Origin: Nitrospirota bacterium
Lineage (GTDB): Bacteria; Nitrospirota; Thermodesulfovibrionia; Thermodesulfovibrionales; Dissulfurispiraceae
Reading direction: 5' to 3'
Length of the DNA stretch: 64,000 nucleotides
NCBI GenBank assembly: GCA_963790025.1
Contig: CAWBMP010000004.1
Span: forward strand, 480,001-544,000
Shown: piece by piece, positions 20,748 to 63,563 of the stretch
How positions within the stretch are numbered: position 1 is the first letter of the stretch
Layout of the letters: each line of letters starts with the position of its first letter
Position numbers and translations under genes: made by a program
Notes under the pieces: generated by a model
The model's database searches: none
The model's input: only the letters and a program-made list of their open reading frames with translations
What the model was told of the DNA's origin: nothing

Positions 20748-20824
<77 letters not shown>

Positions 20825-20923
20825 CTTTTCCAATTTATTTCATTAGGTTTTTTCGTGTGAAAGTGGTCAAAAGCAGTTTCGTGGGAGTTTCATGGGAAAG
20901 ATAAATTAATATCTTTATAATAG

Positions 20924-20975
20924 GTGGAAATTCCTGGGCAGTTCGGACAGGCATTCCGATTTGGTTCGGACAGTT
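20924..20975 (+). mobile_element. Solo IS end remnant (IS21-like repeated end structure)
   Basis: ATTCC...GTTCGGACAG repeated with a ~23-bp period (20941-20950, 20964-20973); no transposase follows. Confidence 0.4.
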
Positions 20976-21357
20976 AAGCCGTCTCTGATACTACATATAA
21001 CCCGCTTTTCTCGCTCGATTAACTCAGACAAACTTCCTCACAGTACCACTCGGTTGTTGCAACATTTCATAACTGAGGGGTACGTCCCGTAACTTCGCTG
21101 AACTGCCGAACCCCAAGCTGAACTCTTGCATTGAGCCGGTACTGGAATCATATTTTGCCCGCGTGAAATGCCGGAAGAAACCTTCATTAATGCTGCTCTC
21201 AGAAGAAGTGGTCCGGCATTCTCAGCGAGCGATAAAACTTTCACCGACTACTCCTCATAGTCCAAATCCTTGCAACAGTAAAGATTTACGGAAGAAACCT
21301 GGATAACAAAAAAATAACGCGTTGGCTTTATACTCTTCCATTAAGCAATGCTGCAAT

Positions 21358-21843
21358 CTATTCTTCCAAATTAGAATCGATATGATAGTTAAATTTCTGC
21401 TCTGCTTCTCTAATGAATTTTCTTATTTGAAGAAGTTCCGTTTCTTCTTTAAAAGATATTTTTTGACTTCCGTCGTCGGTAACAATGAGTAAATAATATA
21501 TTTTCTTAAATACTTCTTTTATCAGCACAGCACCGATAAAAACAAGTGGCGCTCCGAAAGCAAAAAACTTATATCCGTTGTGTTGATTGAGAGACGTATT
21601 CCCTTGCATAGCGTCAATGAGAAATCCAATAATAGGAAAAAAGAAGATCATCCCACCGCCAATAAGAATTATACCTATTATCAGTTGAGCTATGGGACGG
21701 TTTGCACTTGTCCCATAATTCAAGGTGATGCTTCGTATTGCCTTTTTGGGTATGAATGCAACTGCCTTTCCATTATCGAGCTCACGTATTTCGTTGCCCG
21801 AGACCTCAACACCAGAAAAACTTAATGAGCTATCTATTTGCAT
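21358..21843 (-). CDS. Hypothetical membrane protein (2 TM)
   Basis: 161-aa ORF with two hydrophobic segments. Confidence 0.65.
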   Translation of the reverse strand: MQIDSSLSFSGVEVSGNEIRELDNGKAVAFIPKKAIRSITLNYGTSANRPIAQLIIGIILIGGGMIFFFPIIGFLIDAMQGNTSLNQHNGYKFFAFGAPLVFIGAVLIKEVFKKIYYLLIVTDDGSQKISFKEETELLQIRKFIREAEQKFNYHIDSNLEE

Positions 21844-21972
21844 TTGGATTTCGCTAGATTATACCAAATTCAAGTTTACATAGTTCAGAAGCAGAACTCT
21901 TGCCACTCATCTCCACCGACAACTACTCAGCCCAGGTATTTCATCGAGAACGTTGCTTTCCGCAAGAAACCA

Positions 21973-22020
21973 GCATAACGATAAGCTAACCCAATCGCCG
22001 ATTGAGCTATTTAGCTGCTG
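21973..22020 (-). other. Degenerate attC-like site downstream of ORF 22011-22589
   Basis: Minus strand ends ...GGTTAGCTTATC-GTTATGC, with an internal CAATCG-G-CGATTG palindrome. Confidence 0.4.
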
Positions 22021-22589
22021 GTTCTTTTAGGATCGGTGTCCATTGAAACTCTTCTGCGCAAAGGTGAAAAATAGACAGCTGGAATTAACGAAAAAAATAT
22101 CCAATGGCCTGAAAAGCCACGCAGTTCATAGGAGCGAAAACGATAGAATTCTTGCTCAGACAACTCCCGGATTATGTGCCCGTGACTTGTAAGATAGTAT
22201 TTACCATTTTCAGCATCTGGGCCGCCACCTTCGGAGTTTTTGAAGAATAAACCAAAATTAATGAGCATATAGATGAATGCCGCTGTATATAGAATGCGAA
22301 TCGTTATGGGTACTGACCGGATGATTTCAGCCATATATGTCTGGTCTGCACTTTTCGAATTGTACCACAATGTAAAGCAACTTTCCTCTGGCTCGCGTGC
22401 CGGTCGTTTACTCTTTTGTTTTGCAACGAGATTTATAATCATTGCACCAAATACAATCATTACGCCCAGATGTAGCGGCCATGCGACGCTCATAGAAAGC
22501 CTATCAGACGGGATAAATGTACTGATATGGCATACGAGGCTTAACGCTAGCATTGTACTTGATAAAATATAAAAGAAATTTAGCAACAA
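22011..22589 (-). CDS. Hypothetical membrane protein
   Basis: 192-aa ORF with several TM segments; GGAG RBS before TTG. Confidence 0.7.
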   Translation of the reverse strand: MLLNFFYILSSTMLALSLVCHISTFIPSDRLSMSVAWPLHLGVMIVFGAMIINLVAKQKSKRPAREPEESCFTLWYNSKSADQTYMAEIIRSVPITIRILYTAAFIYMLINFGLFFKNSEGGGPDAENGKYYLTSHGHIIRELSEQEFYRFRSYELRGFSGHWIFFSLIPAVYFSPLRRRVSMDTDPKRTSS

Positions 22590-22809
22590 TGTCTCCTTGC
22601 CTGGAAATAGTAGTTAGACCGTTAATCGCACGAACAATCGTTAGTCCGATAAGTTTCGTCTTTTCACATAGTTCATTTCCGATAATAACTTACACTATTT
22701 TGACGATTTTGAAAAGCGAGGGTTACAGGAAGGACCTCTGCGGAACCAATACCGACGACTACGCAGGTATCGAGGAGTTGCAACTACTGAAGATTTATGG
22801 AAGAAATTC

Positions 22810-22899
22810 GCAGTACCGATTTAAATGAAGCCAAGGGCAACCAGCACGTGAAAAGAACCACAGAGGCTATTCACTGTCGGCTCGATTGATTTGTTGGGC
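22810..22899 (-). other. Degenerate attC-like site downstream of ORF 22923-23300
   Basis: Minus strand GCCCAAC-AAATCAA-TCGAGCCGAC ... GGCTTCATTTAAATC-GGTACTG; canonical R'' and L'' boxes, decayed R'. Confidence 0.5.
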
Positions 22900-22922
22900 A
22901 TTCTTTATTTCTTCAATACAGC

Positions 22923-23300
22923 TTAGAATAGGCGAAACCATGATAACTTTGAGCCTATAGCTTCGCTGATCATAATTAAAATAAAATGATCTCTTTGCTT
23001 CAGTGTCTTGTATGCCTCTTTATAAGTCTCTTTCAGATCTTTATTTGTTTCTATATCTCTTTTGTACATCCGCTCAATTAAGCCTTGTATCTTTTTTTCA
23101 TATTCCGGCTGCGGTATTTCAGCTTCACATTGTTCGCTAAGCTCTATGTCCACAACAAAAGATGGTTCTGTTTCAGACCATGACAACATGTAGCGTTGTG
23201 CTTTGGATAGCGGTGCCCCTTCGTGTTCTGCTTGCTGTATGATCTTGTTTACAAAAAAAGCTTTAGCTGTATATTGACTATCGACTGGCATATCTGTCAT
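22923..23300 (-). CDS. Hypothetical protein
   Basis: 125-aa ORF with AAGGAGG RBS, preceded by GTTCGGC. Confidence 0.75.
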   Translation of the reverse strand: MTDMPVDSQYTAKAFFVNKIIQQAEHEGAPLSKAQRYMLSWSETEPSFVVDIELSEQCEAEIPQPEYEKKIQGLIERMYKRDIETNKDLKETYKEAYKTLKQRDHFILIMISEAIGSKLSWFRLF

Positions 23301-23555
23301 TTCCTCCTTTTGTCATGCCGAACAATTACTATACCCTGCCGCATTTTCTGATCCTTGATCGCAATAATAGCATAGCGATCACAACTTTTGAAGGCAAAAC
23401 TGAATAGAATCAAGATGGCACTCACTTCTTGAAATGGCTTCTCCTGATATTACTGACTAAAAGCCATCATGGTAAAAAATGGGAAAATTGGTTTACGAAA
23501 GTAACCATCGGATCGAAAGTCACTGCTACAACGAAGGGTTACAGGAAGCAATTTC

Positions 23556-24011
23556 TTATTGTTTCCCTGTATCAGGTTCCCATCCAGAAGATGCTGTAGC
23601 CTCTATCGCTTTGCATAGTTCTTTTGCACTATCGGGACACCTCAGGCGGGTGTTGTTAATGATTTTTTGAAGCACATCAACAGATATTGTCATGTCAATA
23701 TGCTTTAAAACAAAATTCTTAAATCTTTTGTCAGATGAGCATAGTTCCCGGAGTCTTTCAAAATGCTTCCAATCATCTGCCAAAAGCCGTCCGACAGCAT
23801 CGCTAAATCCCTCAGCTATTGCGCCATCATCGCAATGAGCAAAACGCTTATAAAATCCGTAGGCAATATCCCAAGTCTTAAGATTATCTGTTTCACCTTC
23901 GGCTTGATATGCTTCCTCTTTGGCGCAAACCTTTTGTGCTGCATCAACTGGAGGGCATAAATTCAGACTCATAATTAAAATAACAATAATTCGAAGCATA
24001 AGTTTATTCAC
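23556..24011 (-). CDS. Hypothetical exported Cys-containing protein
   Basis: GGAGGGGG RBS before GTG 24011; signal peptide; CDDGAIAEGFSD motif and several Cys. Confidence 0.7.
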   Translation of the reverse strand: MNKLMLRIIVILIMSLNLCPPVDAAQKVCAKEEAYQAEGETDNLKTWDIAYGFYKRFAHCDDGAIAEGFSDAVGRLLADDWKHFERLRELCSSDKRFKNFVLKHIDMTISVDVLQKIINNTRLRCPDSAKELCKAIEATASSGWEPDTGKQ

Positions 24012-24275
24012 TGAACCCCCTCCATGAATTACCGTTTGAAAGCTGCACAATTATATCACGCGCTGAGGGCGTTGTTTACAGGAAGAAGTTAAAAAAGTTA
24101 TCCGTCGCCTATGCCGGACCTTTTTTGATCATGGTACGGGATAAAATGCGCGTTTCCATTAAAAGGCCGTCTGGTGCACCAGTCCTTCTGAAGTCCGCTA
24201 TGTAGCGTTTTCACCATAGGCTCAAGGTTTCAGCTGGAAAAAAACACTATGAGGTGAGTAAGGACATGTTATCCG

Positions 24276-24352
24276 TGAACTCCCCTGCGGCAGAAACCGC
24301 AGTATGTCAAAAGCCAAGGCACTACCCTGTGGCAGAGACTACAGGGAGTTCA
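24276..24352. repeat. Double-hairpin palindromic REP/IS200-IS605-end-like element
   Basis: TGAACTCCC ... GGGAGTTCA outer inverted repeat enclosing two related hairpins CTGCGG-CAGAAA-CCGCAG and CCCTGTGG-CAGAGA-CTACAGGG. Confidence 0.55.
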
Positions 24353-24393
24353 TGCAACTTAAAGTAGTCTTCCTTATAGTATGGACAACCTTT

Positions 24394-24975
24394 CTATCGC
24401 GAGGGATTCCGGGCCTTCTCGGCTATTTGATCGGCTGGCGTGATGCCCTTGCAGTCGGAGCCGAGATACTTCATTTGTATCTCGCTCCGCATGGTGTGGC
24501 GGTTACCCTGATTATCAGTCGTTGTCATATCCATGCGTGTAGTCACCGTATCGCTGCTGACGGTACTTTCGCCCTTGCCGATCATGGTGCCTCTCCTAGT
24601 GGTACAATTGATCTCAAAACTGGTCTTGTTGCCGCTGCGGCTTACTCTGGTCGGTTCGCAGTCGCCCTTGGCGTCAACCATAGGCTTGTCCTTGGCCGCC
24701 ATAGCCGGGCTGATGCAAATTTGCATTCCGCCGCCGGAGAGCAAGCCTTGGTTACCCATCATGGCTTGCATCTGCTCACGCTGAACAGGGGACATATTGG
24801 CCAATGCTTGCTGCATTTTGGCCTGGGCCGAGGCTATCTGCGCAGTCATGTCACGGCCATCCATGATTTGGCTGATCGGCTTATATTCCCATAGGCCAGG
24901 CTTCAAGCCGGAATTTTGCGCAAATGCTGTCCCACTCAGGAGTGTGATAAGAATTACCAAGATTGTTTTTTTCAT
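24394..24975 (-). CDS. DUF3617 family exported protein
   Basis: Signal peptide, LKPGLWE motif, ICISP, C-terminal KYLGSDC. Confidence 0.85.
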   Translation of the reverse strand: MKKTILVILITLLSGTAFAQNSGLKPGLWEYKPISQIMDGRDMTAQIASAQAKMQQALANMSPVQREQMQAMMGNQGLLSGGGMQICISPAMAAKDKPMVDAKGDCEPTRVSRSGNKTSFEINCTTRRGTMIGKGESTVSSDTVTTRMDMTTTDNQGNRHTMRSEIQMKYLGSDCKGITPADQIAEKARNPSR

Positions 24976-25508
24976 GCTTGCCTCCTAATGGCAATAGGTT
25001 AATAGCCGCTTTAGCCCCGTCATCGGGATTGCCACCAACCTCGGCGACATATGCTTAGCAAATCCATAGATCATCGCCGGCTAAACAGACGTTGGCTATA
25101 GGAGATCCAGGCGCTTGCGTATTATGATAGCTGGAGATATTGCGTTTTGCAAGTGCTCCTGTGAAAGTTCTCCTGTGAAACTACTGTCAGAAGGAAAACT
25201 ATTGGACCACATTCCTTCCTGTTATCATCGGCGATAGTTTACGACCGGAAGTCAACGCTTGTCCCCGTTCAAGTTATCTTGACTCAAAGCCATCAGGTAG
25301 GGTATAACAAATCTGCTGGGGGAGTACATTTAGACAGAAAAATCGATACCACCGCAATAGTAAAATTATTCGTCCTGACAAATACAATAAATCAAATAGT
25401 TACAAGAGGCGCGATTTTCCTACAGATCACAAGAGATTAGAATTGTCGGAATTATCGAGTTAACTGCTTAATGACTTGTTGAGAAGAGCTCGGTGAAGTG
25501 TTTCGCAA

Positions 25509-25979
25509 ATGAACGGGAAAAAATTCCTTGAACTCAAAATTCCTCCACCCTTAGTTTTTGCGGTATTCGGAGGCCTTATGTGGACACTTTCACGGCTCGT
25601 GCAAGCCGCAGATTTTTCGTTCCTGTCGAATACCGTTATTGCTCTGGCTATAGCCGGAGTTGGTGGCGTATTTGCGGTACCGGCTATAGTATCATTTCTG
25701 CTCGCAAGGACGACGATACATCCGCATAAACCGCGTGAAACCCGGAAATTGATTGTTACCGGCGTCAACGCTATTACGCGAAATCCCATGTACTTGGGAC
25801 TGCTGCTCGTGCTGATAGCCTGGGCGATATACCTGTCCAATATCTTATCATTTGTGCCGCTTCCGTTTTTTGTTGCCTATCTCAATCGGTTCCAGATCAG
25901 ACCTGAAGAAAGAGCGCTCGCTGATAGATTTGGAAGCGAGTATGAGGCATACTGTAACCGCGTACGCCGGTGGCTGTAA
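25509..25979 (+). CDS. Isoprenylcysteine carboxyl methyltransferase/PEMT family membrane protein
   Basis: IPPP, TTIHP, LIVTG, TRNPMYLG, EERAL..FG.EY..Y..RVRRWL. Confidence 0.9.
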   Translation: MNGKKFLELKIPPPLVFAVFGGLMWTLSRLVQAADFSFLSNTVIALAIAGVGGVFAVPAIVSFLLARTTIHPHKPRETRKLIVTGVNAITRNPMYLGLLLVLIAWAIYLSNILSFVPLPFFVAYLNRFQIRPEERALADRFGSEYEAYCNRVRRWL

Positions 25980-26471
25980 CTCAGCGTCAAGGTATGACGA
26001 GAGAAGAATGGCAATCATTATAATTGAAAATCAGCAAGAAACAATATAGCGATTTTCACCAAGCCGTTAAATCGTATTCTATTGAAGTATGATGGCTCTA
26101 AGGAGACGTTCGAGTCACACGTTCTGTAGCGCAGGGCTCCACTCATCGTTCATCCACCTTTCTTTCGAAAACCTACAATAGTTTCGTCACCTAATAACTA
26201 TTGACAAGTCGGTGTACTTCCTGAAACACGCACAAATAGCAATTTGCTGAATATGTTTAATGCGGGTAGAAGCTATCAACATCGGATTTCCCCGATGCTA
26301 CTTAATAATCGAGAATGCCGACAATACAGCAAATACGTTATGTTCCATCGGAAACGCTCACCCCTCACATGCGGAGTACTTCTAAGAGCAGCTATTACTT
26401 AAAAACGTAAAGAGCCTTACACCTTTTGTAAATAGAATCTGATAAAATAGCCCCACCAGGGGGATTAGTAG

Positions 26472-29886: not shown

Positions 29887-30339
29887 TTATAAAACTTCAT
29901 CGTCACCATAAATTCTTTTGTCTCCAAAAATCTCTGTTTTACCAGATACTGTTCCATTACCAGAAACTATTGCATTACCAGAAACCCTTGCTTTACCACA
30001 AACACGTGCATTACCAAAAACTTGTGCTTCATTAAAAACTCTTGCAAAATCAAAAATGGTTGGACCACCAAAAATTTTTGCATTGTCATAAATCTGTGCT
30101 TAACCATAAATCCTTACATATTGAAAAACCTTTGCATTGCCACAAACTATTGCTTCATCAGCAACCCAACAGTTGCCTTCGTGTGACAAGTTATATTCTT
30201 CTTGTATCCAGCCTCCAAAATCACCTTTTGTTACATTCCCAAAATGATTTAATGCTCGGATTCTGTGTAATACTATTCCTTTTCCAGTCCCATTTTTACT
30301 TCTTATTGTTTCGTCTGTTATTTCGTATTTTTTCATCAT
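29887..30339 (-). pseudogene. Phage-type left-handed beta-helix (hexapeptide repeat) protein with one in-frame TAA
   Basis: MMKKYEIT...LHRIRAL...GDFGGWI..E.NLS..GNCWV, then xAxVxG hexapeptides continuing in frame past TAA at 30100-30102 to a stop at 29887. Confidence 0.75.
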
Positions 30340-30690: not shown

Positions 30691-31191
30691 ATGAAAAGAA
30701 CCGTAAAGGAAACCTCAGTAGTGATGGCTCAAGTTATGCTGCCGCAGGATGCAAATCCGGCCGGTAATGTGCATGGTGGCGTGATAATGAAGCTGATTGA
30801 TACAGCAGCAGCTGTGGTATCTTGTCGTCACGCTCGATCAAACACCGTCACCGCTTCTATAGATATGATGGCCTTCCATAACGCTGTATTCGTCGGTGAT
30901 CTGCTTTGGCTTAAGGCATGCGTTAATATGGTTGGCAAGACCTCGATGGAGATTGGTGTCAGGGTGGAGGCGGAAAACTATATTACTGGCGAGATCAGGC
31001 ATACATCGTCGGCATATCTAACCTTTGCTGCTCTTGGTCCTGATGGAAAACCTACGCAAGTGCCCGAGCTGATACTAGACACAGATGACGATAGAAGAAG
31101 GAATCAAGAGGCGATCATGCGGAGGAAGACAAGGCAAGAACTTCGCAGGAAAGAAGAACAATGTAAACGGGATGGTATTTGCCCGATCTAG
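30691..31191 (+). CDS. Acyl-CoA thioesterase (YciA-like hotdog fold)
   Basis: DANPAGNVHGG, VTASID, GKTSMEIGV. Confidence 0.92.
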   Translation: MKRTVKETSVVMAQVMLPQDANPAGNVHGGVIMKLIDTAAAVVSCRHARSNTVTASIDMMAFHNAVFVGDLLWLKACVNMVGKTSMEIGVRVEAENYITGEIRHTSSAYLTFAALGPDGKPTQVPELILDTDDDRRRNQEAIMRRKTRQELRRKEEQCKRDGICPI

Positions 31192-31250
31192 GTCCTATAG
31201 TGCCCGAAGAATACGAAAGATTGCTGGGGTCAGGCTTGCGTTCAGTGCAT

Positions 31251-31325
31251 TTAGTGCTTCCGATTGCCACGGACTATTACATGATAAAATGCTCCGGGAT
31301 ATTCTATGCGTGGCGCCCTTGCCAT
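31251..31325 (-). pseudogene. N-terminal 24-aa remnant of a REP-associated tyrosine transposase (RAYT, IS200-like HUH)
   Basis: MARAPRIEYPGAFYHVIVRGNRKH* matches the MARxxRIxxPGxxYHVxxRGN start of RAYT/Y1 transposases. Confidence 0.8.
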
Positions 31326-31401
31326 GATGCCAAAATGTAGCACACTTAAATGCACGTATGCAAGCCTGAACATCCCGCTGGAATTTTCAATATATTTTTT
31401 C

Positions 31402-32601
31402 TTATTTAGATAAGATGTACCCTCTGTTCTCCTTCAGCATCTTGAAAATAACACGGCAAAGATGACGACCAAGCGCACGTAGTGCCTGGTTATGTTTCTT
31501 GCCTTCAGCTCTTTTTTTCTCATAATATTGTTGAGACTGCGGAACTTGTTTTCGGTGCCGATCTACGGCAACCATCATTGCGGCCTTAGCCCGAGTATTA
31601 ACCTGCGTTGGTGGTTTTGATCCTTTTTGCTTGCCTGAACTATTGTCAAGATTCGCCATCCCAATATACAGAGCCAGACTTGCTTCGCTGCCAAAGCGCT
31701 CGATAGTTCCAATCTCTCCGGCGAGTTCAGATGTACAAATGGAACCGAATCCTGGAATGGTTGCGAGCGTTTGCGCAATATCCGAGCCGTGTGCAACACC
31801 CTCCATCTTTGCTTCAAGTGATTTTATCTTGGCATGGAGTTCCATCACGCGGATTGCATCTTCCTGGATCATTTCACCGACCCACTCGACGTCGTGACTA
31901 AACTGTGCTGTTTTCTGCCATTCAACAATAACAGAGGCATATTTCTTACCAATGCCCGGGATCTTGCGGATAGTTGTTTCCCGCATGCGTGCAAGCGTGC
32001 GAAGGTCATCCGTGCTGGTCAGAAATCCAAGAAACCACATATTGTCGGCCTCACCGGTAATCTCCAGAAGTCCCGGACATACAGCGTGAAGATCGGCCTG
32101 TAGGTTGTTTACTACCCGTACTCGCTCATCGACCAAACGACGCCGGCGCCGTGATAGCCGCTTTAGAATGTCGTTGTCCCGCGGCGTTTTGCGTACCTCC
32201 TGCAGCACATCCTTGGCTATCGGCAGATGATCTCGAAGCTGAAAAAGCTCCAGTCCTTTCCTTGCGTCGATTGCATCGGTCTTCGCGGCACCGGGGAATA
32301 TCTCCTTGAATCGAGCAAGCTTGAGATTGTTGATATTGAAGAGGCGATAATTGCGGGCTCGAACGAGCGTGTCCAGCGGACGTGCGTAGCCGTTGAAGCC
32401 CTCCATTGCTACGGCAACGGGACAACTAAACCTTTGCTCCTGCTTCTCGATGCGACAGAAGAATTGCCGGAACCCTTCAGGTTCATGCACGATTGAGAAT
32501 TCATCGAGGACTTCACCGCTGGATAGGCCGATTGCAACGTTGTGACTGCGGCAGCCAATATCGACGCTTACACGCAGTTCGAGGGGATCATCTTTTTTCA
32601 T
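31402..32601 (-). CDS. IS110 family DEDD recombinase/transposase
   Basis: VDIG, MEG, KTDAIDA (D-E-D-D), IPGFG, AGEIG..ERF, DNSSGK catalytic-Ser region, K..ALRALGR. Confidence 0.95.
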   Translation of the reverse strand: MKKDDPLELRVSVDIGCRSHNVAIGLSSGEVLDEFSIVHEPEGFRQFFCRIEKQEQRFSCPVAVAMEGFNGYARPLDTLVRARNYRLFNINNLKLARFKEIFPGAAKTDAIDARKGLELFQLRDHLPIAKDVLQEVRKTPRDNDILKRLSRRRRRLVDERVRVVNNLQADLHAVCPGLLEITGEADNMWFLGFLTSTDDLRTLARMRETTIRKIPGIGKKYASVIVEWQKTAQFSHDVEWVGEMIQEDAIRVMELHAKIKSLEAKMEGVAHGSDIAQTLATIPGFGSICTSELAGEIGTIERFGSEASLALYIGMANLDNSSGKQKGSKPPTQVNTRAKAAMMVAVDRHRKQVPQSQQYYEKKRAEGKKHNQALRALGRHLCRVIFKMLKENRGYILSK

Positions 32602-32619
32602 GTAGTCTCCTTTGCAGAC

Positions 32620-32820
32620 AAGATTATCATCCTCAGGTCTCGTCTACTTACAGAGCCACATTTGGCACCATCCCGGTCGACCCTTTTGAGGATGATGCAG
32701 ATGACGGAGGCGGCATTTCAGACTCAAGTGAGCCTGAATGAACAGGCCACTGACCCCACAAGCCACACCCCCGTTAAGCATATCTTACATGAATAAAGCT
32801 GCCATAGTCATCTGCATAAA
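32620..32820 (-). ncRNA. Predicted IS110 bridge RNA (5' target-binding loop, 3' donor-binding loop)
   Basis: Stems 32626-32635/32687-32696, 32695-32705/32807-32817 and 32732-32736/32743-32747; loop segments match the reconstructed target and donor junctions. Confidence 0.8.
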
Positions 32821-32900
32821 TCCTATGGTAGACCCCATTGTTTCCGTTTAAACCTATATCTCCCCCTTGTCACTTGCGTTAACAGCCACAAACTTGACTA

Positions 32901-33179
32901 TTACTCTGCTTCGTCGAGTCCCTTATTTAAAGCGCCTTCTATAAGCGTTATATGCCGCCCGACATTTTCAGCGAGCACCGCAATTTCTTTAAAATTGCGG
33001 GGGCGTTCGTTCTCCGGGATCGCTTCAAGTGCAAGCGCGAGCAGGTGCACATTGTGATAAAGATCCTCCAGACGCCTCCGTACTGGTCCCTCACGATCCT
33101 GAAACTTCTCTATCCAATTTGCAGCTCTTTCGATCTCTGCCTCCAATTCTTCATATGTTTTTTTCTTAGCCTCCGCCAT
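32901..33179 (-). CDS. Hypothetical helical protein
   Basis: 92-aa ORF with GAGGAG RBS. Confidence 0.65.
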   Translation of the reverse strand: MAEAKKKTYEELEAEIERAANWIEKFQDREGPVRRRLEDLYHNVHLLALALEAIPENERPRNFKEIAVLAENVGRHITLIEGALNKGLDEAE

Positions 33180-33205
33180 TTTAACTCTCCTCTTTTGGTG
33201 ATTTT

Positions 33206-56635: not shown

Positions 56636-58711
56636 CTACTTCATAAGTGGAACTATAAGCAGCGCCACTATGTTGATGACTTTGATCATCGGGTTGATGG
56701 CCGGTCCTGCGGTGTCCTTGTAAGGATCGCCGACCGTGTCGCCCGTCACAGAAGCTTTGTGTCCATCACTGCCCTTTTTATGCACTACACCTTTATCATC
56801 AGTAACGCCGTCTTCAAAGGACTTCTTGGCGTTGTCCCACGCGCCGCCACCGCTTGTCATAGCAATGGCCTGGAATAATCCGGTCAGGATGGCTCCGATA
56901 AGGACGCCTCCAAGGGCCTCTCTTCCCAGCAGCATTCCGACAACAATAGGGACCACCACTGGTATAAGGGCCGGGACCATCATCTGCCTGATAGCGCCTT
57001 TTGTGACAATGTCAACGCACTTTCCGTATTCCGGCTTTGCCTTATACTCCATAATGCCGGGTATCTCCCTGAACTGTCTTCTGACTTCTTCAACAATACT
57101 GCCCGCCGCCTTTCCAACAGCCTCCATAAGGAGTGAGCCGAAATAATAAGGAAGCAGACCCCCGATGAAAAGACCGGCAAGGACCATCGGGTTGGAGAGA
57201 TCAAACAGTATAGTAGCCCCGAACGACCTTGAATACTCCGCAAAAAGGACCAGGGCCGCAAGACCTGCAGAGCCTATGGCATAACCCTTTGTAACAGCCT
57301 TTGTCGTGTTGCCGACTGCATCCAGCGGGTCTGTGATAGCACGAATCTCTTCAGGCAATCCCGACATCTCTGCGATACCGCCTGCATTGTCTGTTATAGG
57401 TCCATAGGAGTCAATCGCAACAACAATTCCTGTCATTGAAAGCATCGAAACCGCTGACAAGGCGATAGCGAAAAGACCACCAGCCGCATCACCATTAAAT
57501 CCGCCGCCCAATGAATAAGCGCCCAGGATTGAGGCGACTATAACTATAACAGGAGCGCCGGTTGCCTTCATACTGACCGCGAGGCCGGCAATCACGTTTG
57601 TGCCGTGACCGGTCAGACTGGCCTTCGCAATATGTTGCACAGGACTATACTCTTTTGCGGTAAAGTACTCGGTTATGACCACGATCAGGCCTGTCAAAGC
57701 GAGACCGATAAGCGCCATAAGAAAAACATGCATCTGTGTAAACGCCGGATGCGCAACCAACGAGGCTGAAGCAGGGCCTCCAAGAAACCTCCCTGTTACT
57801 ATATAGAATACAATTGCAGCGAGAATTCCCGAAACCGCGAGTCCCTTATAAAGGGCGCCCATGATATACTGGTTTTTGCCGAGCTTAACTGCAAATGTAC
57901 CGATAATAGAAGCGATGATAGATATACCGCCAAGAAGCATCGGGAATTCAACCCACGGGCTGTCAGCTCCAAAAACCGTCTTTGCAAGGAGCATTGCTGC
58001 AACAAGAGTGACCGTGTATGTCTCATAAAGGTCGGCTGCCATACCTGCGCAGTCGCCGACGTTGTCACCGACGTTGTCCGCTATAACAGCAGGGTTTCTC
58101 GGATCATCCTCAGGGATCCCGGCCTCAACCTTGCCGACAAGGTCTGCCCCAACATCAGCAGCCTTTGTGTAAATACCGCCCGCGATACGGGCAAATACGC
58201 TCATGAGTGAGCACCCGAAGCCGAGCCCTACCAGCGCATGGAAGGCCATCTCAGGAGCCGCCTGCTTTGCTATCGTATAGAATCCTGCAAGACCGATGAT
58301 TCCGAGGCCGACAACCATAACCCCTGTAACAGAACCGCCCTTGAAAGCGAGGCTGAGTGCAGCCTGGAGTCCCTTGTGAGCGGCCTGCGTGGTGCGCACA
58401 TTGGCGCGAACTGTCACCCACATACCGACAAAGCCGGCAAGTGCTGAACCGACAGTACCGATAATAAAACCAATACTGGTCCAAATTCCAAGTCCAATTG
58501 CAGCAATTAAAATAACAAGGATAACAGCCACAACTGCAACAGTTTTATACTCGCGGGCTAGAAAAGCATATGCTCCCTCTTTAACTGCATTGGATATCTC
58601 CTGCATCTTAGCACTACCTGCGTCCTGCTTCGATACCCACATTGCAGTAATTACAGCGTATACCACGCCCAAAACGCCGCAAGCTAAAGCAAAAAGTATT
58701 GTATGACTCAT
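56636..58711 (-). CDS. hppA: Membrane-bound proton-translocating pyrophosphatase, K+-independent type
   Basis: [26 protein letters not shown] (Lys at the K+-dependence position), [11 protein letters not shown]. Confidence 0.96.
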
Positions 58712-58867
58712 CTACTATCTCCTCCTTACGAATGAATTTTTTAAAACGCGCATAACTTTAACACAAAAGGGCCGTCGCCGTATACCGATCAACCGGGTGC
58801 CGGTCAACCATATATAGACGGCTCCATAGTGCATCCCTTCAATCACCCCCTTTGTGATTAGTCTTGA

Positions 58868-60031
58868 TTACTGTTCCCTTTGTGCATGCCGCGCAAAAAC
58901 CATAGCCGTTGTCCTGTACACCATATGTGCCATTTTTGAAAAAGGTGCGTAAGCGAAAAGAAAAAAGATAAAAACCAGATGTATGAAGTAGACAGGATAA
59001 GCAACAGGGGCCACATCGGCAAGCCGCAGCACCTCGGACAAAATTCCTGTAACGACTATGGTAAATATAACCACAATAAAGAGCCAGTCAAAATAGCTTC
59101 CGCCTCCCGCCTTTTCGGCATTCTTCAGGCGGTTCGCAGTGACAAACAGCATACCCAGCAGCAGTGCAAACGCGCTGGCGTTGCCGACAATCTTCATCGG
59201 GTCATAGAGGGGATAAGGTGTTTCGCCAAAGTGAAAAATGGACGTCGCCTGAATGCCAAAAATTTCATGCCCGTAAAGGTAGAGAACTCCCCACCCGGTC
59301 GTGACGGCAAGGCCTATAAAAGCATAAAAAACCAGCATGTGCGCCGTAGAACGGTCTTTTGTGACATTGCACTTCTTGAACCTGTCATGCGACAGGATAT
59401 CGCAGATCGTCGCCTTTAAGCTGTCCATCACATTGCCCTTTAATTGCATGCCTGCACTCATATCCGCCCAGTACTTTTTAATACCTATAAAGAAGGATAT
59501 TACGGCAAATGCGGATGCCAGTATGAACACCGTATCTATATAAGGTACAGGTATAAAATTTGAATATACTATCCCTCCATTCGCGCCCCTCGGAATGTCC
59601 GAAAGGTGGCCCAACGAAGTGATAATGCCCAGAAAAATGAGGACCGGCAATGCGAACAGCAGGAGAATGAATTTCGGATCAGCCGTCATGTTGGCCAACG
59701 CACCGGGCACCGCATAATTCTTGATCGTCATTTTCCTTATCGCGCCGAGCACCTCGCCCGGCTTTGCTCCCCTCGGGCAGTAGGCGGTGCAGTCGCTGCA
59801 CTGGTGGCAAAGCCAGACATCCGGATTGCTTATCAGCTTGTCTTTCATCCCCCACTGCGCATACATCATCTCTTTTCTGGGGAAAGGCTTTTCATCGGGG
59901 GTAACATTGCAGACCACTGTGCAGGTGGAGCACTGGTAGCATTTCTTCAGCGACTCGCCACCCGAGGCAATAATATCATTGACAAAATTCAAGTCCGGCT
60001 TTATTATTTGTTCCATTGTCTGTTCCGGCAT
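58868..60031 (-). CDS. qmoC: Quinone-interacting membrane-bound oxidoreductase subunit C
   Basis: HdrC-like CYQCSTC..C and CHQCSDC..CP, then an HdrE-like membrane domain with heme His residues. Confidence 0.93.
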   Translation of the reverse strand: MPEQTMEQIIKPDLNFVNDIIASGGESLKKCYQCSTCTVVCNVTPDEKPFPRKEMMYAQWGMKDKLISNPDVWLCHQCSDCTAYCPRGAKPGEVLGAIRKMTIKNYAVPGALANMTADPKFILLLFALPVLIFLGIITSLGHLSDIPRGANGGIVYSNFIPVPYIDTVFILASAFAVISFFIGIKKYWADMSAGMQLKGNVMDSLKATICDILSHDRFKKCNVTKDRSTAHMLVFYAFIGLAVTTGWGVLYLYGHEIFGIQATSIFHFGETPYPLYDPMKIVGNASAFALLLGMLFVTANRLKNAEKAGGGSYFDWLFIVVIFTIVVTGILSEVLRLADVAPVAYPVYFIHLVFIFFLFAYAPFSKMAHMVYRTTAMVFARHAQREQ

Positions 60032-60042
60032 ATCGCTTCCTC

Positions 60043-62190
60043 CTAAAAGCCCTTGAAAGGATTAGGGCCTATTTCTTTAACTCTGTCTACAAAGTCGCCT
60101 ATTACTTTCGTGATCTTATCATATTCGTCAATGGCGAGTTGTACCATCCCCACGCGCTCGGATTCGAGCTGCAGCCTGCCGAGTGTTTCCTGTACCTTGC
60201 CGAGCCGGTAATCTGCGAGTTCGCTGCCCTTTGCAAAGTGGCATTGGTAATTATCTCCGAACTTGCAGCCCAGCAGGAGCATACCATCCACTCCCCTTGA
60301 GAGGGCATCTGCGATCCAAACCAGGTTTGTAGAGCCAAGACACCTGAGCTGTATGATCCTCACCGCCGGGTCAATCTTCATATGCTTTAATGCCGCAGTG
60401 TCAATGGCGGGATATGCGTCATTTTCACAGGCAAGAACAATGATCCTCGGCTTGTCGTCTTCGGACGGCACGGATACGTTCTTCATCATGGAGCCGATCA
60501 TATCGACATGATAATCCTTGAACGAAATAATCCTCTCCGGGCATGCCCCCATGCAGGTTGCGCATCTTCTGCAGCGCCCCGGCTTGAAGAAGGGAGTCCC
60601 CTTCTCGTCCTCGTCAATGGCCCCGAACGGGCATTCTTCCGTGCACCGCTTGCAGGACGTACACCGCTGCATCAAGGGGTCGGGCCACGTTATGTCCCAT
60701 GCCCTCGGATGCACCGCCATGCCTTGGGCAACATGCTCCGCAGACTGTATCGCCTTGAGGGCCGCGCCGGTCGCGTCTTCCTGCGCCTCAGACATACTCA
60801 TGGGCTGGCGCACGCATCCTGCGGCGTATATTCCCGTCCTCCTGGTTTCGTACTGGAAACAAATAAAATTGGAATCAGCGAACCCGTCATATAATTCAAG
60901 ATCAGGCAAACCCGGTCCCTGCCGGTACTGAAGATTCAAGACCGGGTCGTCTACGGTTGCAGGGACAATGCCGGTCGCAAGGACTACGAGGTCCGCCTCT
61001 ACCTTCACTTTATCGCCAAGGAGGCTGCCTTCCATTTCCACGTACAGGTTCCCGTTCCCCGCCTCGGACACGCCGGTTACGTCGCCTTTCGTCATCATAA
61101 CACCAGGGTCATTCTGCGCAGCCTTGTAATAGTATTCGAGATTACCGGGCGTCCTGATGTCCTTGTAGAGGATCATTGCGGTTGCATCCGGGTCCTGCCG
61201 GACATATTTCGCCTGTTTCAGAGAAGTCGTACAACACATCGCCGAGCAGTAAGGCAAGTGATTCGGGTCTCTCTGGCCCGCGCACTGTATAAAGGCGACC
61301 TTCTTGGCCTCTTTACCGTCTGAAGGCCTCGCAATCTTTCCTTTTCTTGCAATTTCTTCAAACTCAATATTGGTTACAACATCTTTTGATTTTCCATAGC
61401 CCAGGTGCTCAAGCTTGTTTGCATCATAAGGTCTCCACCCGGCAGCCATGATAACAGCACCGATCTTCACCACCTCGGAATTTCCATTGGATGTAATAGT
61501 CACATCGAATTGGCCTGGCTGTCCTTCTATCTTCTCCACCTTTGAGGACTTGAATACCTTTATATTGGCATTGCCTTCGGCCTCTTTGATTGTTTTGTCT
61601 ATGTCGGTATCTACAATCAGCGGCCCCGTAAACTCACCCTCTGATGCCGGGACTTTCTTAAAGAGTTTGTTGGCGAATCCGCCCAGCCGGTCTTCCTTCT
61701 CGACCAGCACCACCTGATAGCCCGCCTTCGCAGATTTCAGGGCAGCAGTCATACCCGAAATACCGCCGCCTATAACGAGAATGGTTTTCACCGTTTCCAT
61801 CATATAAGGTTCAGGGAGATCGCCTTTCTGCGCCTTGATAACACCCATTTTAATATAGTCTTCTGCCGCCATCTGGGCCTCTTCGGTTTTTGGTTCCTGT
61901 GTCCAGACAGCCAACTCCCTGAGGGATATCCTTTCGACCAGGCAGCCGGGAAAATCGAATTCCTCATACTTGACACGACCGGAGCATGCTGCAAGCACTA
62001 CAGTGTTGACCGCAGCACTTTTAATGTCTTCCTTGATGAGTTCCAGACCTTCTTTGCCGCAAAGGGCGAAGTGGGACCTGACAACCGGGACCTTTAAGGA
62101 GTTAGTAGCAATATTGATCGACTTTTCGACATCTATGGAGTCTCCAATGGAGCACCCCGTACATATATATAGTCCTATATTTTTATCCAT
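60043..62190 (-). CDS. qmoB: QmoB (HdrA-like plus MvhD domain)
   Basis: GGGISG, QCAGQRD..HLPYCS..CC, 4Fe-4S motifs, C-terminal ACENDAYP...CLG...GC......CHF. Confidence 0.95.
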   Translation of the reverse strand: MDKNIGLYICTGCSIGDSIDVEKSINIATNSLKVPVVRSHFALCGKEGLELIKEDIKSAAVNTVVLAACSGRVKYEEFDFPGCLVERISLRELAVWTQEPKTEEAQMAAEDYIKMGVIKAQKGDLPEPYMMETVKTILVIGGGISGMTAALKSAKAGYQVVLVEKEDRLGGFANKLFKKVPASEGEFTGPLIVDTDIDKTIKEAEGNANIKVFKSSKVEKIEGQPGQFDVTITSNGNSEVVKIGAVIMAAGWRPYDANKLEHLGYGKSKDVVTNIEFEEIARKGKIARPSDGKEAKKVAFIQCAGQRDPNHLPYCSAMCCTTSLKQAKYVRQDPDATAMILYKDIRTPGNLEYYYKAAQNDPGVMMTKGDVTGVSEAGNGNLYVEMEGSLLGDKVKVEADLVVLATGIVPATVDDPVLNLQYRQGPGLPDLELYDGFADSNFICFQYETRRTGIYAAGCVRQPMSMSEAQEDATGAALKAIQSAEHVAQGMAVHPRAWDITWPDPLMQRCTSCKRCTEECPFGAIDEDEKGTPFFKPGRCRRCATCMGACPERIISFKDYHVDMIGSMMKNVSVPSEDDKPRIIVLACENDAYPAIDTAALKHMKIDPAVRIIQLRCLGSTNLVWIADALSRGVDGMLLLGCKFGDNYQCHFAKGSELADYRLGKVQETLGRLQLESERVGMVQLAIDEYDKITKVIGDFVDRVKEIGPNPFKGF

Positions 62191-62197
62191 CGTTCGA

Positions 62198-63457: not shown

Positions 63458-63477
63458 ACCGCTCCTCCTTATTGATT

Positions 63478-63563
63478 GTAATGCATGATCAGTGATGGGC
63501 AATAAACCACAGGCTGCAGGCTATTGGTCCTCGTATTTATTACACATTACTCATAACGCATAA
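63478..63563. repeat. Degenerate 7-mer tandem array with an inverted partner array
   Basis: GTAATGC ATGATCA GTGATGG GCAATAA versus TTATTAC ACATTAC TCATAAC GCATAA. Confidence 0.55.

What the first reader, a model, noticed from the sequence alone, without database searches (positions are those of the whole stretch)
31368..32832. IS110 element with a fully decodable bridge RNA programmed against a RAYT/REP inverted repeat
Seen, written on the element (minus) strand: the empty target reconstructs to caaTGGGG-TC-AGGCTtgc and the circular donor junction to cagCGGGATGt-TC-TACcat, so the core is TC. The non-coding left end holds two bilobed hairpins. 5' lobe: UGGGGUCAG (32758-32750) is identical to the target top strand, then a GCCUG/CAGGC hairpin, then AGUCUGA (32724-32718), which pairs with TCAGGCT using one G:U. 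3' lobe, closed by a perfect 10-bp stem (32626-32635/32687-32696): CGGGAUG (32675-32669) equals the left donor and GUAGA (32647-32643) is complementary to the right donor TCTAC. Established: IS110 (IS621) bridge RNAs have this target-loop then donor-loop layout, with a CT core. Inference: this is an intact RNA-guided recombinase with a different core and specificity, usable as a new programmable orthologue.
Basis: partly seen in the sequence, partly recalled or inferred. Interest (0 to 1): 0.92.

Follow-up and report, generated by a model that had tools for sequence, protein, structure and literature searches.

The report
IS110 insertion sequence with bridge RNA
This is an apparently intact jumping gene of the IS110 family that carries its own guide ("bridge") RNA matching both its own ends and the repeat it sits in; the kind is already known, so it is a new, distant member rather than a new mechanism.

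Summary
The 1,465-bp element (32832..31368, minus strand) encodes a 399-aa DEDD/Tnp IS110 recombinase behind a 231-nt left end. Across 47 relatives that left end folds into a stem/internal-loop/stem-loop module twice: 97.9% of cells paired, 20 of 39 pairs compensatory.

The loop segments behave as guides.
- The 3' target guide pairs with the right flank at core +1..+5 more than permuted pairings do (0 of 10,000).
- The 5' target guide matches the left flank.
- Donor guides co-vary with the element ends.
- The handshake positions fit the IS621 rule.

The core is TC at both junctions. The target is one arm of a 15-nt inverted repeat flanking a 24-codon RAYT-like remnant. Relatives sit in the same repeat beside full-length RAYT-like genes.

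IS110 bridge RNAs and REP targeting are published, so this is a new member of a known kind. It is very distant from IS621 (phmmer E 0.003). RNA expression, circle formation and programmability are untested.

The parts
31368..32832 (-). Whole IS110-group element, including both copies of the TC core
   Evidence: the ends are conserved in relatives. The rebuilt empty site equals the intact repeat at 31225-31239.
32831..32832 (-). Left copy of the core dinucleotide TC
   Evidence: TC at 48 of 51 left junctions of relatives.
31368..31369 (-). Right copy of the core dinucleotide TC
   Evidence: TC at 41 of 41 right junctions.
32602..32832 (-). Non-coding left end (231 nt) that encodes the bridge RNA
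   Evidence: fold z = -3.3; conserved in 54 of 69 loci; one covariance-model hit in the window, 32616-32832, 210 bits.
32825..32830 (-). TACCAT, the -10 half of the promoter that forms only in the circle
   Evidence: Read. TACCAT in 43 of 50 relatives, TATCAT in 6, TACTAT in 1. Function is inferred.
31385..31390 (-). TTGAAA, the -35 half of the junction promoter, 17 nt from TACCAT once the ends are joined
   Evidence: Read. Present in 30 of 41 right ends; the others read TTGCAA, TTGTAA or TTGATA. No comparable site on this strand upstream of the integrated left end.
32697..32815 (-). Closing helix P1 (32815-32807 with 32705-32697) around a variable 5' hairpin and the target-binding module
   Evidence: (I1), 32, 34: 4 of 6 counted pairs show compensatory changes.
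32703..32775 (-). Target-binding module: 12-bp stem (idx 58-71 / 119-130), internal loop, inner 8-bp stem-loop (idx 83-105)
   Evidence: helix 2 is 99.3% paired with 5 compensatory pairs. Helix 3 has 7 of 8 pairs compensatory.
32752..32758 (-). Left target guide UGGGG+UC, identical to the target top strand
   Evidence: identities to the left flank exceed permuted (5.21 vs 4.78, 0 of 10,000) and slid registers (4.98 vs at most 3.64).
32718..32724 (-). Right target guide AGUCUGA, which pairs with TC+AGGCT using one rU:dG wobble
   Evidence: the signal lies at +2..+5 and is lost at +6. 0 of 10,000 permutations reach it. Register slide gives 3.82 against at most 1.36.
32716..32717 (-). Target-loop handshake position (AA). 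The first A pairs with donor position 7 (T, 31370), not with target position 7 (G).
   Evidence: Rule taken from PMC11208158. A in 55 of 55 rows; donor position 7 is T in 35 of 41. Inferred.
32626..32696 (-). Donor-binding module: 10-bp outer stem, 4-bp second stem (idx 151-154 / 194-197), internal loop, inner hairpin GCC/GGC
   Evidence: helices 4-6 are 96.8-99.3% paired, with compensatory changes in helices 5 and 6.
32669..32675 (-). Left donor guide CGGGAUG, identical to right-end bases 31377-31371
   Evidence: Invariant in the close family. In the held-out L046 both guide and right end carry G->A at the same position.
32643..32652 (-). Right donor guide: GUAGA pairs with TC+TAC. UG (32652-32651), upstream of a variable 3-nt linker, may pair with CA of the left end.
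   Evidence: left end TAC goes with GUAGA in 44 rows, TAT with AUAGA in 5 and with AUGGA in 1. The UG part is inferred from conservation.
32641..32642 (-). Donor-loop handshake position (CG). C pairs with target position 7 (G, 32833), not with donor position 7 (T).
   Evidence: C in 55 of 55 rows; target position 7 is G in 50 of 51. Inferred.
31402..32601 (-). Recombinase gene, 399 aa: DEDD RuvC-like domain plus Tnp domain
   Evidence: PF01548 7e-21, PF02371 1e-16. NF033542, 164.6 bits against a cut-off of 140. E67, D109, D112 and S322 align with the ISCro4/IS621 catalytic positions.
31368..31401 (-). Short non-coding right end (34 nt including the core)
32833..32839 (-). Left half of the target (AATGGGG)
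31360..31367 (-). Right half of the target (AGGCTTGC)
31225..31239 (+). Uninterrupted inverted partner of the target repeat (15 nt), an unoccupied cognate site
31251..31325 (-). 24-codon remnant of a RAYT-like Y1 transposase gene, lying between the two repeat arms
   Evidence: 57-76% identical to the N-termini of genes in 9 of 69 loci. Two full-length ones are PF01797. The remnant itself is too short for Pfam.

Best explanation
This is an intact-looking IS110-group insertion sequence in the chromosome of an uncultured Nitrospirota/Thermodesulfovibrionales-like bacterium.

Proposed cycle:
1. On excision the two ends join at the TC core.
2. The joint places a -35 box (TTGAAA, right end) 17 nt from a -10 box (TACCAT, left end).
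3. That promoter transcribes the left end into a bridge RNA of about 190-200 nt, and the recombinase mRNA behind it.
4. The RNA's first internal loop holds the target: UGGGGUC reads the bottom strand of (T)GGGG-TC, and AGUCUGA reads the top strand of TC-AG(A/G)CT.
5. The second loop holds the element's own joint: CGGGAUG reads the right end and GUAGA reads TC-TAC of the left end.
6. The base 3' of each 3' guide (A, C) pairs only with the other DNA's position 7, as the IS621 handshake guides do.
7. The DEDD/Ser recombinase then exchanges strands at TC.

The natural target is a REP-type repeat that flanks RAYT-like genes.

Shown here: family membership, conserved RNA structure, guide-flank complementarity and its covariation, boundaries and core.
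Inferred: transcription, circle formation, the handshake role, catalysis and reprogrammability.
For: Protein:
- PF01548 and PF02371.
- NF033542 'IS110 family RNA-guided transposase', 164.6 bits against a cut-off of 140.
- E67, D109, D112 and S322 align to the ISCro4/IS621 catalytic positions.
- 399 aa, the commonest length among homologues.

Anatomy:
- Left end 231 nt, right end 34 nt, TC at both junctions.
- The empty-site sequence is present intact at 31225-31239.

RNA:
- 47-sequence alignment with 39 pairs. 97.9% of cells are paired, against 35-51% in slid controls. 20 pairs have compensatory changes. 0 of 500 shuffles reach any measure.
- The covariance model finds one hit in the window and hits in 55 of 69 loci. 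These include the held-out L046, whose protein is 49% identical.

Guides:
- RTG-RT over 39 rows: 3.92 WC pairs against 3.04 permuted, 0 of 10,000. On 29 unique combinations: 3.66 against 2.63, 0 of 10,000. Register slide: 3.82 against at most 1.36.
- LTG-LT over 47 rows: 5.21 against 4.78, 0 of 10,000.
- RDG G/A tracks left-end C/T in 50 of 50 rows.
- LDG and right end both carry G->A in L046.
- Handshake bases fit in 35 of 41 and 50 of 51 rows.

The layout matches PMC11208160 and PMC11208158 (passages read).
Against: - There are no RNA, circle or activity data.
- Only one copy is in the 64-kb window, and the rest of the genome was not available.
- In the window the left target guide matches only 5 flank bases plus the core. 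The next two bases mismatch.
- The left donor guide mismatches donor position 7 and the second core base, unlike IS621, where the core is in all four pairings.
- The right target guide needs one wobble.
- Alone, the two 3' guides are no better than shuffles (1,223 and 2,547 of 3,000).
- Among relatives, 5 of 39 have only 2 of 5 WC pairs on the right.
- Six loci have T where the left guide has G at -3 (L047, L058, L010, L049, L043, L025). L003 and L020 have a changed core base in the left guide.
- The target guides are so conserved (GGGGUC) that covariation on the left rests on few positions.
- Loci are related, so permutations overstate independence.
- Similarity to IS621 is marginal (E 0.0034, C-terminal part only).
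- Rfam has no matching family.
Confidence: 0.85

Rival explanations
1. The architecture is right but this copy is a fossil. It is a single, immobile insertion whose RNA or protein no longer works.
For: - There is one copy in the window, and no identical copy among the 69 loci.
- The target site is a near-cognate, with one wobble against the perfect match seen in L001.
- A perfect unoccupied target 131 nt away has not been used.
- Some relatives are clearly decayed: L003 and L020 have guide-core changes, and several loci hold truncated genes.
Against: - The reading frame is open and full length (399 aa, the same as most homologues).
- Catalytic positions are kept.
- All helices are intact, and the guide, core, -35 and -10 motifs match the family consensus.
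- The covariance score of 210 bits lies mid-range for the family.
Confidence: 0.15
2. Target choice is set mainly by the protein, or by the hairpin shape of the REP DNA. The loop matches are then a by-product of a conserved left end meeting a conserved repeat.
For: - The GGGGTC left half is nearly invariant in both guide and flank, so it cannot discriminate (-1 and -3 are 0.98 observed and 0.98 expected).
- A recent preprint reports that a target stem-loop adds specificity for ISPpu10 beyond base pairing (10.64898/2026.03.19.712850, abstract read).
- The single-sequence test for the 3' guides is not significant.
Against: - Complementarity, not mere correlation, rises above permuted pairings exactly at +2..+5 and stops at +6.
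- It collapses when the register is slid by one base.
- The donor guides change together with the ends.
- For IS621 the RNA is necessary in vitro (PMC11208160).
Confidence: 0.07
3. The conserved left-end structure is a 5' UTR that only regulates recombinase expression, as with the small RNAs and UTR structure described for ISPpu9. It does not guide DNA recognition.
For: - The structure lies directly upstream of the ribosome-binding site (AAGGAG, 32612-32607).
- Regulation of an IS110-family transposase by UTR structure is published (PMC8450116, search listing and abstract only).
Against: A purely regulatory UTR does not explain three things:
- The unpaired loop segments equal or complement the flanks and the element ends in the IS621 strand pattern.
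- They covary with those DNAs.
- The handshake positions mismatch the cognate DNA and match the non-cognate DNA.
Confidence: 0.03

Closest known systems
IS621 of Escherichia coli (bridge recombinase, PDB 8WT6) and ISCro4/IS622 (PDB 9T56)
   Same: - DEDD plus Ser-Tnp recombinase, with a long left end and a short right end.
- A 2-bp core duplicated at both junctions.
- A left-end RNA with the target loop first and the donor loop second, each built as stem, 5' guide, stem-loop, 3' guide.
- The 5' guides read the bottom strand and the 3' guides read the top strand.
- A handshake base sits 3' of each 3' guide.
- The promoter is split across the joined ends.
- The natural target is a REP repeat.

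Sources: PMC11208160 and PMC11208158 (passages read), set.
   Different: - The protein similarity is barely detectable (E 0.0034 and 0.0026, C-terminal part only).
- The core is TC, not CT. In IS621 the second core base T is reported as almost invariant and read by the protein backbone. Here that position is C.
- The left donor guide skips donor position 7 and the second core base.
- An extra closing helix (P1) encloses the 5' hairpin and the target module.
- The right target guide is 7 nt against 4 nt in IS621.
ISPpu9 and ISPpu10 of Pseudomonas putida (IS110 family, REP-targeting)
   Same: IS110-family elements that insert into repetitive extragenic palindromes or one conserved intergenic stem-loop sequence. 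Sources: PMC12288879 abstract and 10.64898/2026.03.19.712850 abstract.
   Different: The host phylum differs. No sequence comparison was made here. Whether the hairpin shape of the target matters for this element is untested.
IS1111-group elements (seekRNA / right-end bridge RNA)
   Same: The same recombinase family and the same RNA-guided logic (PMC11208160).
   Different: IS1111-group elements have a short left end, a long right end that encodes the RNA, and long subterminal inverted repeats. The element here has the opposite layout (231 / 34 nt), so it belongs to the IS110 group.

Membership tests
IS110 family, IS110 group (bridge-RNA-guided insertion sequences) | [quoted passage not shown] | tested here: met
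   75.0 and 61.3 bits, both above the cut-offs. NF033542, 164.6 bits against 140.
IS110 family, IS110 group (bridge-RNA-guided insertion sequences) | Catalytic D, E, D, D and Ser retained | tested here: met
   HMMER alignments to ISCro4/IS621 place E67, D109, D112 and S322 on their catalytic positions. The first Asp (D14) is assigned from the motif VSVDIG and the start of the Pfam match, not from a pairwise alignment.
IS110 family, IS110 group (bridge-RNA-guided insertion sequences) | Long non-coding left end, short right end, no long terminal inverted repeats, short core repeated at both junctions | tested here: met
   231 and 34 nt, with TC at both junctions; no terminal inverted repeat of the element ends. 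TC at 48 of 51 left and 41 of 41 right junctions.
IS110 family, IS110 group (bridge-RNA-guided insertion sequences) | Left-end RNA with two internal loops (target loop, then donor loop), each stem / loop / stem-loop, conserved by covariation | tested here: met
   97.9% paired, 20 of 39 pairs compensatory, 0 of 500 shuffles; model hits in 55 of 69 loci.
IS110 family, IS110 group (bridge-RNA-guided insertion sequences) | 5' loop sides match the top strand and 3' loop sides complement it, for target and donor, with the core included in all four pairings | tested here: inconclusive
   Met for LTG, RTG and RDG. The LDG matches 7 bases of the right end, then mismatches position 7 and the second core base. 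The core is therefore included in three of four pairings.
IS110 family, IS110 group (bridge-RNA-guided insertion sequences) | Guides covary with flanks and ends across relatives | tested here: met
   (RTG strong, LTG modest). RDG with left end, 50 of 50. LDG with right end in one held-out relative.
IS110 family, IS110 group (bridge-RNA-guided insertion sequences) | Handshake bases mismatch the cognate DNA and match the non-cognate DNA at position 7 | tested here: met
   A in 55 of 55 rows against donor T in 35 of 41. C in 55 of 55 against target G in 50 of 51. This is by sequence only, and no covariation is available.
IS110 family, IS110 group (bridge-RNA-guided insertion sequences) | Promoter reconstituted across the joined ends | tested here: met
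   Read: TTGAAA, 17 nt, TACCAT (9 of 12 to consensus). Both boxes are conserved. No such site exists in the integrated state. Activity was not tested.
IS110 family, IS110 group (bridge-RNA-guided insertion sequences) | RNA expressed, circular intermediate formed, recombination dependent on the RNA | not testable with these tools
   Needs RNA-seq, junction PCR and recombination assays.
IS621-like subgroup | CT core with near-invariant T at the second position; readily detectable protein similarity to IS621 | tested here: not met
   The core is TC. phmmer gives E 0.0034 over the C-terminal part only. It is therefore not filed as IS621-like.
REP / RAYT system (as the target) | Y1 HUH transposase gene (PF01797) flanked by inverted copies of the repeat | tested here: inconclusive
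   - The window holds only a 24-codon remnant with no Pfam hit, lying between 15-nt inverted arms.
- Full-length neighbours of the IS in L003 and L021 are PF01797.
- In L003 and L044 the gene is bracketed by inverted target copies.
- Their NCBIfam REP_Tyr_transpos scores of 75.2 and 64.1 are below the cut-off of 80.
REP / RAYT system (as the target) | Repeat present in many copies genome-wide | not testable with these tools
   Only the two arms occur in the 64-kb window. The remaining ~1.7 Mb of the contig was not available.

The most novel reading that the evidence does not exclude
This element represents a distinct, widespread lineage of bridge recombinases. It occurs in Nitrospirota, Binatia, deltaproteobacterial MAGs, Nitrospira, Gallionella and others, and it differs from IS621 in three ways.
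- It exchanges strands at a TC core, with C where IS621-like enzymes require T.
- It uses a 7-nt right target guide.
- It leaves donor position 7 unpaired.

Its niche is the REP repeats that border RAYT genes. If it is active and reprogrammable, it would be an orthogonal tool with a different core rule.
Probability: 0.45. Interest if true: 0.55.

Novelty: new member of a known kind. Interest (0 to 1): 0.35.

Why it matters
Bridge recombinases are being developed as programmable DNA insertion, inversion and excision tools, and current work centres on IS621/ISCro4 with CT (or GT) cores. A very distant clade with a TC core and a naturally long right target guide would widen the set of addressable sites. 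It would also give a comparison point for how the core is read.

Biologically, the data show one selfish element (IS110) repeatedly homing to the repeats kept by another (a RAYT-like transposase) across several phyla. None of this changes the known mechanism.

Tried and rejected
- Rfam 15 scan of 31000-33200 at E up to 10: no family matched.
- blastn of the element against the plasmid collection: no match.
- phmmer against PDB chains at E 0.001: nothing. At E 10 there were only marginal ISCro4/IS621 hits.
- The RAYT remnant was first translated one base out of frame. This was corrected.
- Window-only significance of the two 3' guides: rejected, as they are no better than shuffles.
- The idea that the 3' arm of the inner target hairpin (UUCAGGCU), which equals the right junction here, is the real guide: rejected. 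By inspection of relatives, the 3' guide tracks the flank better (L001, L012, L013, L019, L025, L027, L031).
- RNAalifold's extra pairs between the two target guides and within the right donor guide were left out of the counted structure. They are probable by-products of both guides covering the core.
- Literature search for 'bridge RNA' with 'TC core': 0 papers. The papers opened for core variety gave nothing on it.
I could not check whether this clade is already in the published catalogue of predicted bridge RNAs or in ISfinder.
Full report
**What is there**

On the minus strand, 32832..31368 is a 1,465-bp unit with four parts:
- a TC dinucleotide;
- a 231-nt non-coding left end;
- a 399-codon gene (32601..31402);
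- a 34-nt right end that finishes in a second TC.

The protein carries PF01548 (DEDD_Tnp_IS110, 7e-21) and PF02371 (1e-16). It passes NCBI's model NF033542, 'IS110 family RNA-guided transposase', at 164.6 bits against a cut-off of 140. HMMER alignments to the solved ISCro4 and IS621 chains are marginal (E 0.0026 and 0.0034). They nevertheless place E67, D109, D112 and S322 on the catalytic Glu, two Asp and Ser. The first Asp (D14) is assigned from the motif only.

The host is an uncultured Nitrospirota/Thermodesulfovibrionales-like bacterium. Its H+-pyrophosphatase is 92-94% identical to proteins so named, and the contig is about 1.74 Mb.

**Checking the observation**

The boundaries have independent support. 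Deleting the unit and one TC gives TGGGGTCAGGCTTGC, and that exact 15-mer lies uninterrupted on the other strand at 31225-31239, 131 nt beyond the right end.

From the window alone, significance is uneven. Out of 3,000 dinucleotide shuffles of the left end, the numbers reaching the observed match were:
- 43 for the 9-nt identity to the target;
- 238 for the 7-nt identity to the right end;
- 1,223 for the complementary segment against the target;
- 2,547 for the complementary segment against the right donor;
- 0 for all four together.

The real test therefore has to be comparative.

**Relatives**

One scan of genome contigs with the protein returned 69 loci (71 confirmed of 137 pattern matches) at 27-91% identity. 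They come from MAGs labelled Nitrospirota, Thermodesulfovibrionales, Binatia, 'delta proteobacterium', Nitrospira, Gallionella, Methylococcaceae and others. No identical copy was found. The left end is recognisably conserved in 54 of the 69 loci by blastn, most strongly over RNA positions 59-207.

**RNA structure**

I aligned 47 distinct left ends, the window plus 46 loci. Identical rows, rows cut at a contig edge, and L031 and L059 were left out. RNAalifold and a count on a cleaned structure of 39 pairs gave:
- 97.9% of cells paired, against 35-51% when partners are slid by 1-3 columns;
- 20 pairs with changes on both sides;
- 0 of 500 shuffles reaching any of the five measures.

The fold runs as follows:
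- A closing helix (32815-32807 / 32705-32697) encloses a variable hairpin and a first module.
- The first module is a 12-bp stem, an internal loop and an 8-bp stem-loop.
- A second module follows: a 10-bp stem in the window, a 4-bp stem, an internal loop and a GCC/GGC hairpin.

This is the stem / guide / stem-loop / guide plan described for the IS621 target- and donor-binding loops (PMC11208158, passages read).

A covariance model built from the alignment finds one hit in the 64-kb window (32616-32832, 210 bits). It finds hits in 55 of the 69 loci, including nine loci not in the training set (two of these identical in sequence to a training row). One is L046, whose protein is only 49% identical. 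The 14 loci without a hit are truncated or 27-34% identical.

**Guides on the target side**

I paired each left end with its own flanks. Of 55 rows, 39 had a right flank (the other 16 had no locatable right end in the held DNA) and 47 had a complete left flank.

Right target guide against the right flank:
- Over +1..+6 the mean is 3.92 Watson-Crick pairs per locus, against 3.04 when flanks are permuted among loci. 0 of 10,000 permutations reach it.
- By position, observed against expected pairing is 0.90 vs 0.70 at +2, 0.79 vs 0.50 at +3, 0.62 vs 0.46 at +4 and 0.67 vs 0.32 at +5. At +6 it falls to 0.10 vs 0.21.
- On 29 unique guide/flank combinations the result holds: 3.66 vs 2.63, 0 of 10,000.
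- Sliding the register by one base drops the mean over +1..+5 from 3.82 to at most 1.36.
- Per locus, 10 of 39 have 5 of 5 Watson-Crick pairs, 17 have 4, 7 have 3 and 5 have 2. With G:U allowed, 16 have 5 of 5.
- L001 carries the same guide as the window and sits at TCAGACT, a perfect match. The window's TCAGGCT needs one rU:dG wobble.

Left target guide against the left flank:
- GGGG+UC is nearly invariant in both guide and flank, so most positions cannot discriminate.
- The excess over permutation (5.21 vs 4.78, 0 of 10,000) comes from positions -4 to -7.
- 25 of 47 loci match 5 of 5 nearest bases.
- In the window the match is 5 bases plus the core.
One lies in the inner helix. The other is C in 14 relatives, whose targets have A or T there in 11 of 11 with a flank.

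**Guides on the donor side**

CGGGAUG in the second loop equals the right-end bases before position 7. Both are invariant in the close family. In the held-out L046 the guide reads UGGAAUG and the right end AGGAATG, the same G-to-A change on both.

GUAGA complements TC+TAC of the left end. Left ends with TAC have GUAGA in 44 rows. Those with TAT have AUAGA in 5 rows and AUGGA in 1, so pairing is kept in 50 of 50. These changes probably represent only one to three events.

Upstream of GUAGA a 3-nt linker varies freely, between an invariant UG and the guide. UG could pair with the invariant CA of the left end. That would resemble the discontinuous right donor guide of IS621, but it is inference.

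Unlike IS621, the left donor guide mismatches donor position 7 and the second core base.

**Handshake and promoter**

In IS621 the two bases 3' of each 3' guide pair with positions 7 and 6 of the other DNA after strand exchange, and must not pair with their own. Here:
- The base after the right target guide is A in 55 of 55 rows. Donor position 7 is T in 35 of 41 rows, while target position 7 is G.
- The base after the right donor guide is C in 55 of 55 rows. Target position 7 is G in 50 of 51 rows, while donor position 7 is T.

This fits the rule at position 7, but no variation exists to test it.

Joining the ends would place TTGAAA (31390-31385) 17 nt from TACCAT (32830-32825). Both boxes are conserved. 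No sigma-70-like site lies on this strand upstream of the integrated left end. This matches the junction promoter described for IS110 elements (PMC11208160). Its activity is inferred.

**The target**

Between the interrupted repeat arm and its intact inverted partner lies a 24-codon open frame, 31325..31254 plus its stop. The frame is 57-76% identical to the N-termini of genes in 9 of the 69 loci.

- Two of those genes, read in full, are PF01797 Y1 transposases with a DnaA-C-like tail. Their best NCBIfam match is 'REP-associated tyrosine transposase', at 75.2 and 64.1 bits, just under the cut-off of 80.
- In L003 and L021 that gene starts 39 and 44 nt beyond the IS right end on the same strand. 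In the window the remnant starts 42 nt beyond it.
- In L003 and L044 an inverted copy of the rebuilt target lies at the far end of the gene.
- Overall, an inverted partner with at most 2 mismatches in 14 lies 60-1,020 nt beyond the right end in 8 of 35 rows. About 0.02 per locus is expected by chance (my calculation). One further hit lies inside the IS and one lies upstream.

Two limits apply: the window's gene is only a stump, and a high genomic copy number of the repeat could not be checked.

**Comparison with what is known, and verdict**

The following are all published for IS621 and its relatives (PMC11208160, PMC11208158, PMC13626964 abstract):
- the order of the loops;
- the strand read by each guide;
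- inclusion of the core in the pairings;
- the handshake rule;
- the split promoter;
- REP targeting.

Bridge RNAs were predicted in 85.7% of ISfinder IS110-group elements. This element is therefore a new member of a known kind.

It differs in four respects:
- a TC core, with C where the IS621 structure paper reports a near-invariant T;
- a 7-nt right target guide;
- the unpaired donor position 7;
- an extra closing helix.

Its protein is also barely alignable to IS621. I found no paper in the searched library that pairs 'bridge RNA' with 'TC core'. The supplementary catalogues that might already list this clade could not be opened.

Expression, circle formation, activity and reprogrammability remain to be shown.

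Noticed in passing
window 31225-31239 (+): An exact, unoccupied copy of the 15-nt target lies 131 nt from the element's right end in inverted orientation. A second insertion there, or recombination between this site and a circle junction, would bracket or invert the RAYT remnant.
   Followed up: partly
L029 about 2190-2235; L016, L017, L021, L032, L034 left flanks: Several relatives have two or more tandem target-like GGGGTC(AG) motifs within about 40 nt upstream of the insertion. In L029 a 13-nt stretch ending in GGGGTC is duplicated. These could be REP arrays or footprints of earlier events.
   Followed up: no
L048 1922-1990 and IS left end at 2267: A RAYT-like start codon lies only about 345 nt upstream of the IS left end on the same strand. 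The IS may therefore interrupt, or sit just past, a truncated RAYT-like gene there.
   Followed up: no
L041 1-49: A second, partial covariance-model hit (model positions 177-224, 27.6 bits) at the contig edge, about 1.9 kb upstream of the full hit. It suggests a second element copy nearby.
   Followed up: no
window 29939-30027: An 18-nt tandem repeat of 4.9 copies (also read as a 36-nt period) lies in a stretch with overlapping short ORFs just upstream of the thioesterase gene (30691-31191).
   Followed up: no
window 20748-26400: The stretch after tRNA-Pro (20748-20824) has lower G+C (0.40-0.44 against about 0.48-0.52 nearby) and only short ORFs of at most 196 aa. It may be an integrated or degraded island.
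   Followed up: no
window 56636-63502: A membrane H+/Na+ pyrophosphatase lies next to an HdrA-like flavoprotein fused to an MvhD/FlpD domain (60043-62190). This fits an anaerobic lifestyle.
   Followed up: partly
The window's own recombinase is absent from the 5.8-billion-protein collection (best hit 90% identical), although its pyrophosphatase is present at 100%. Relatives of the recombinase mostly sit on contigs of 1.3-4 kb, as expected for repeats that break assemblies.
   Followed up: no
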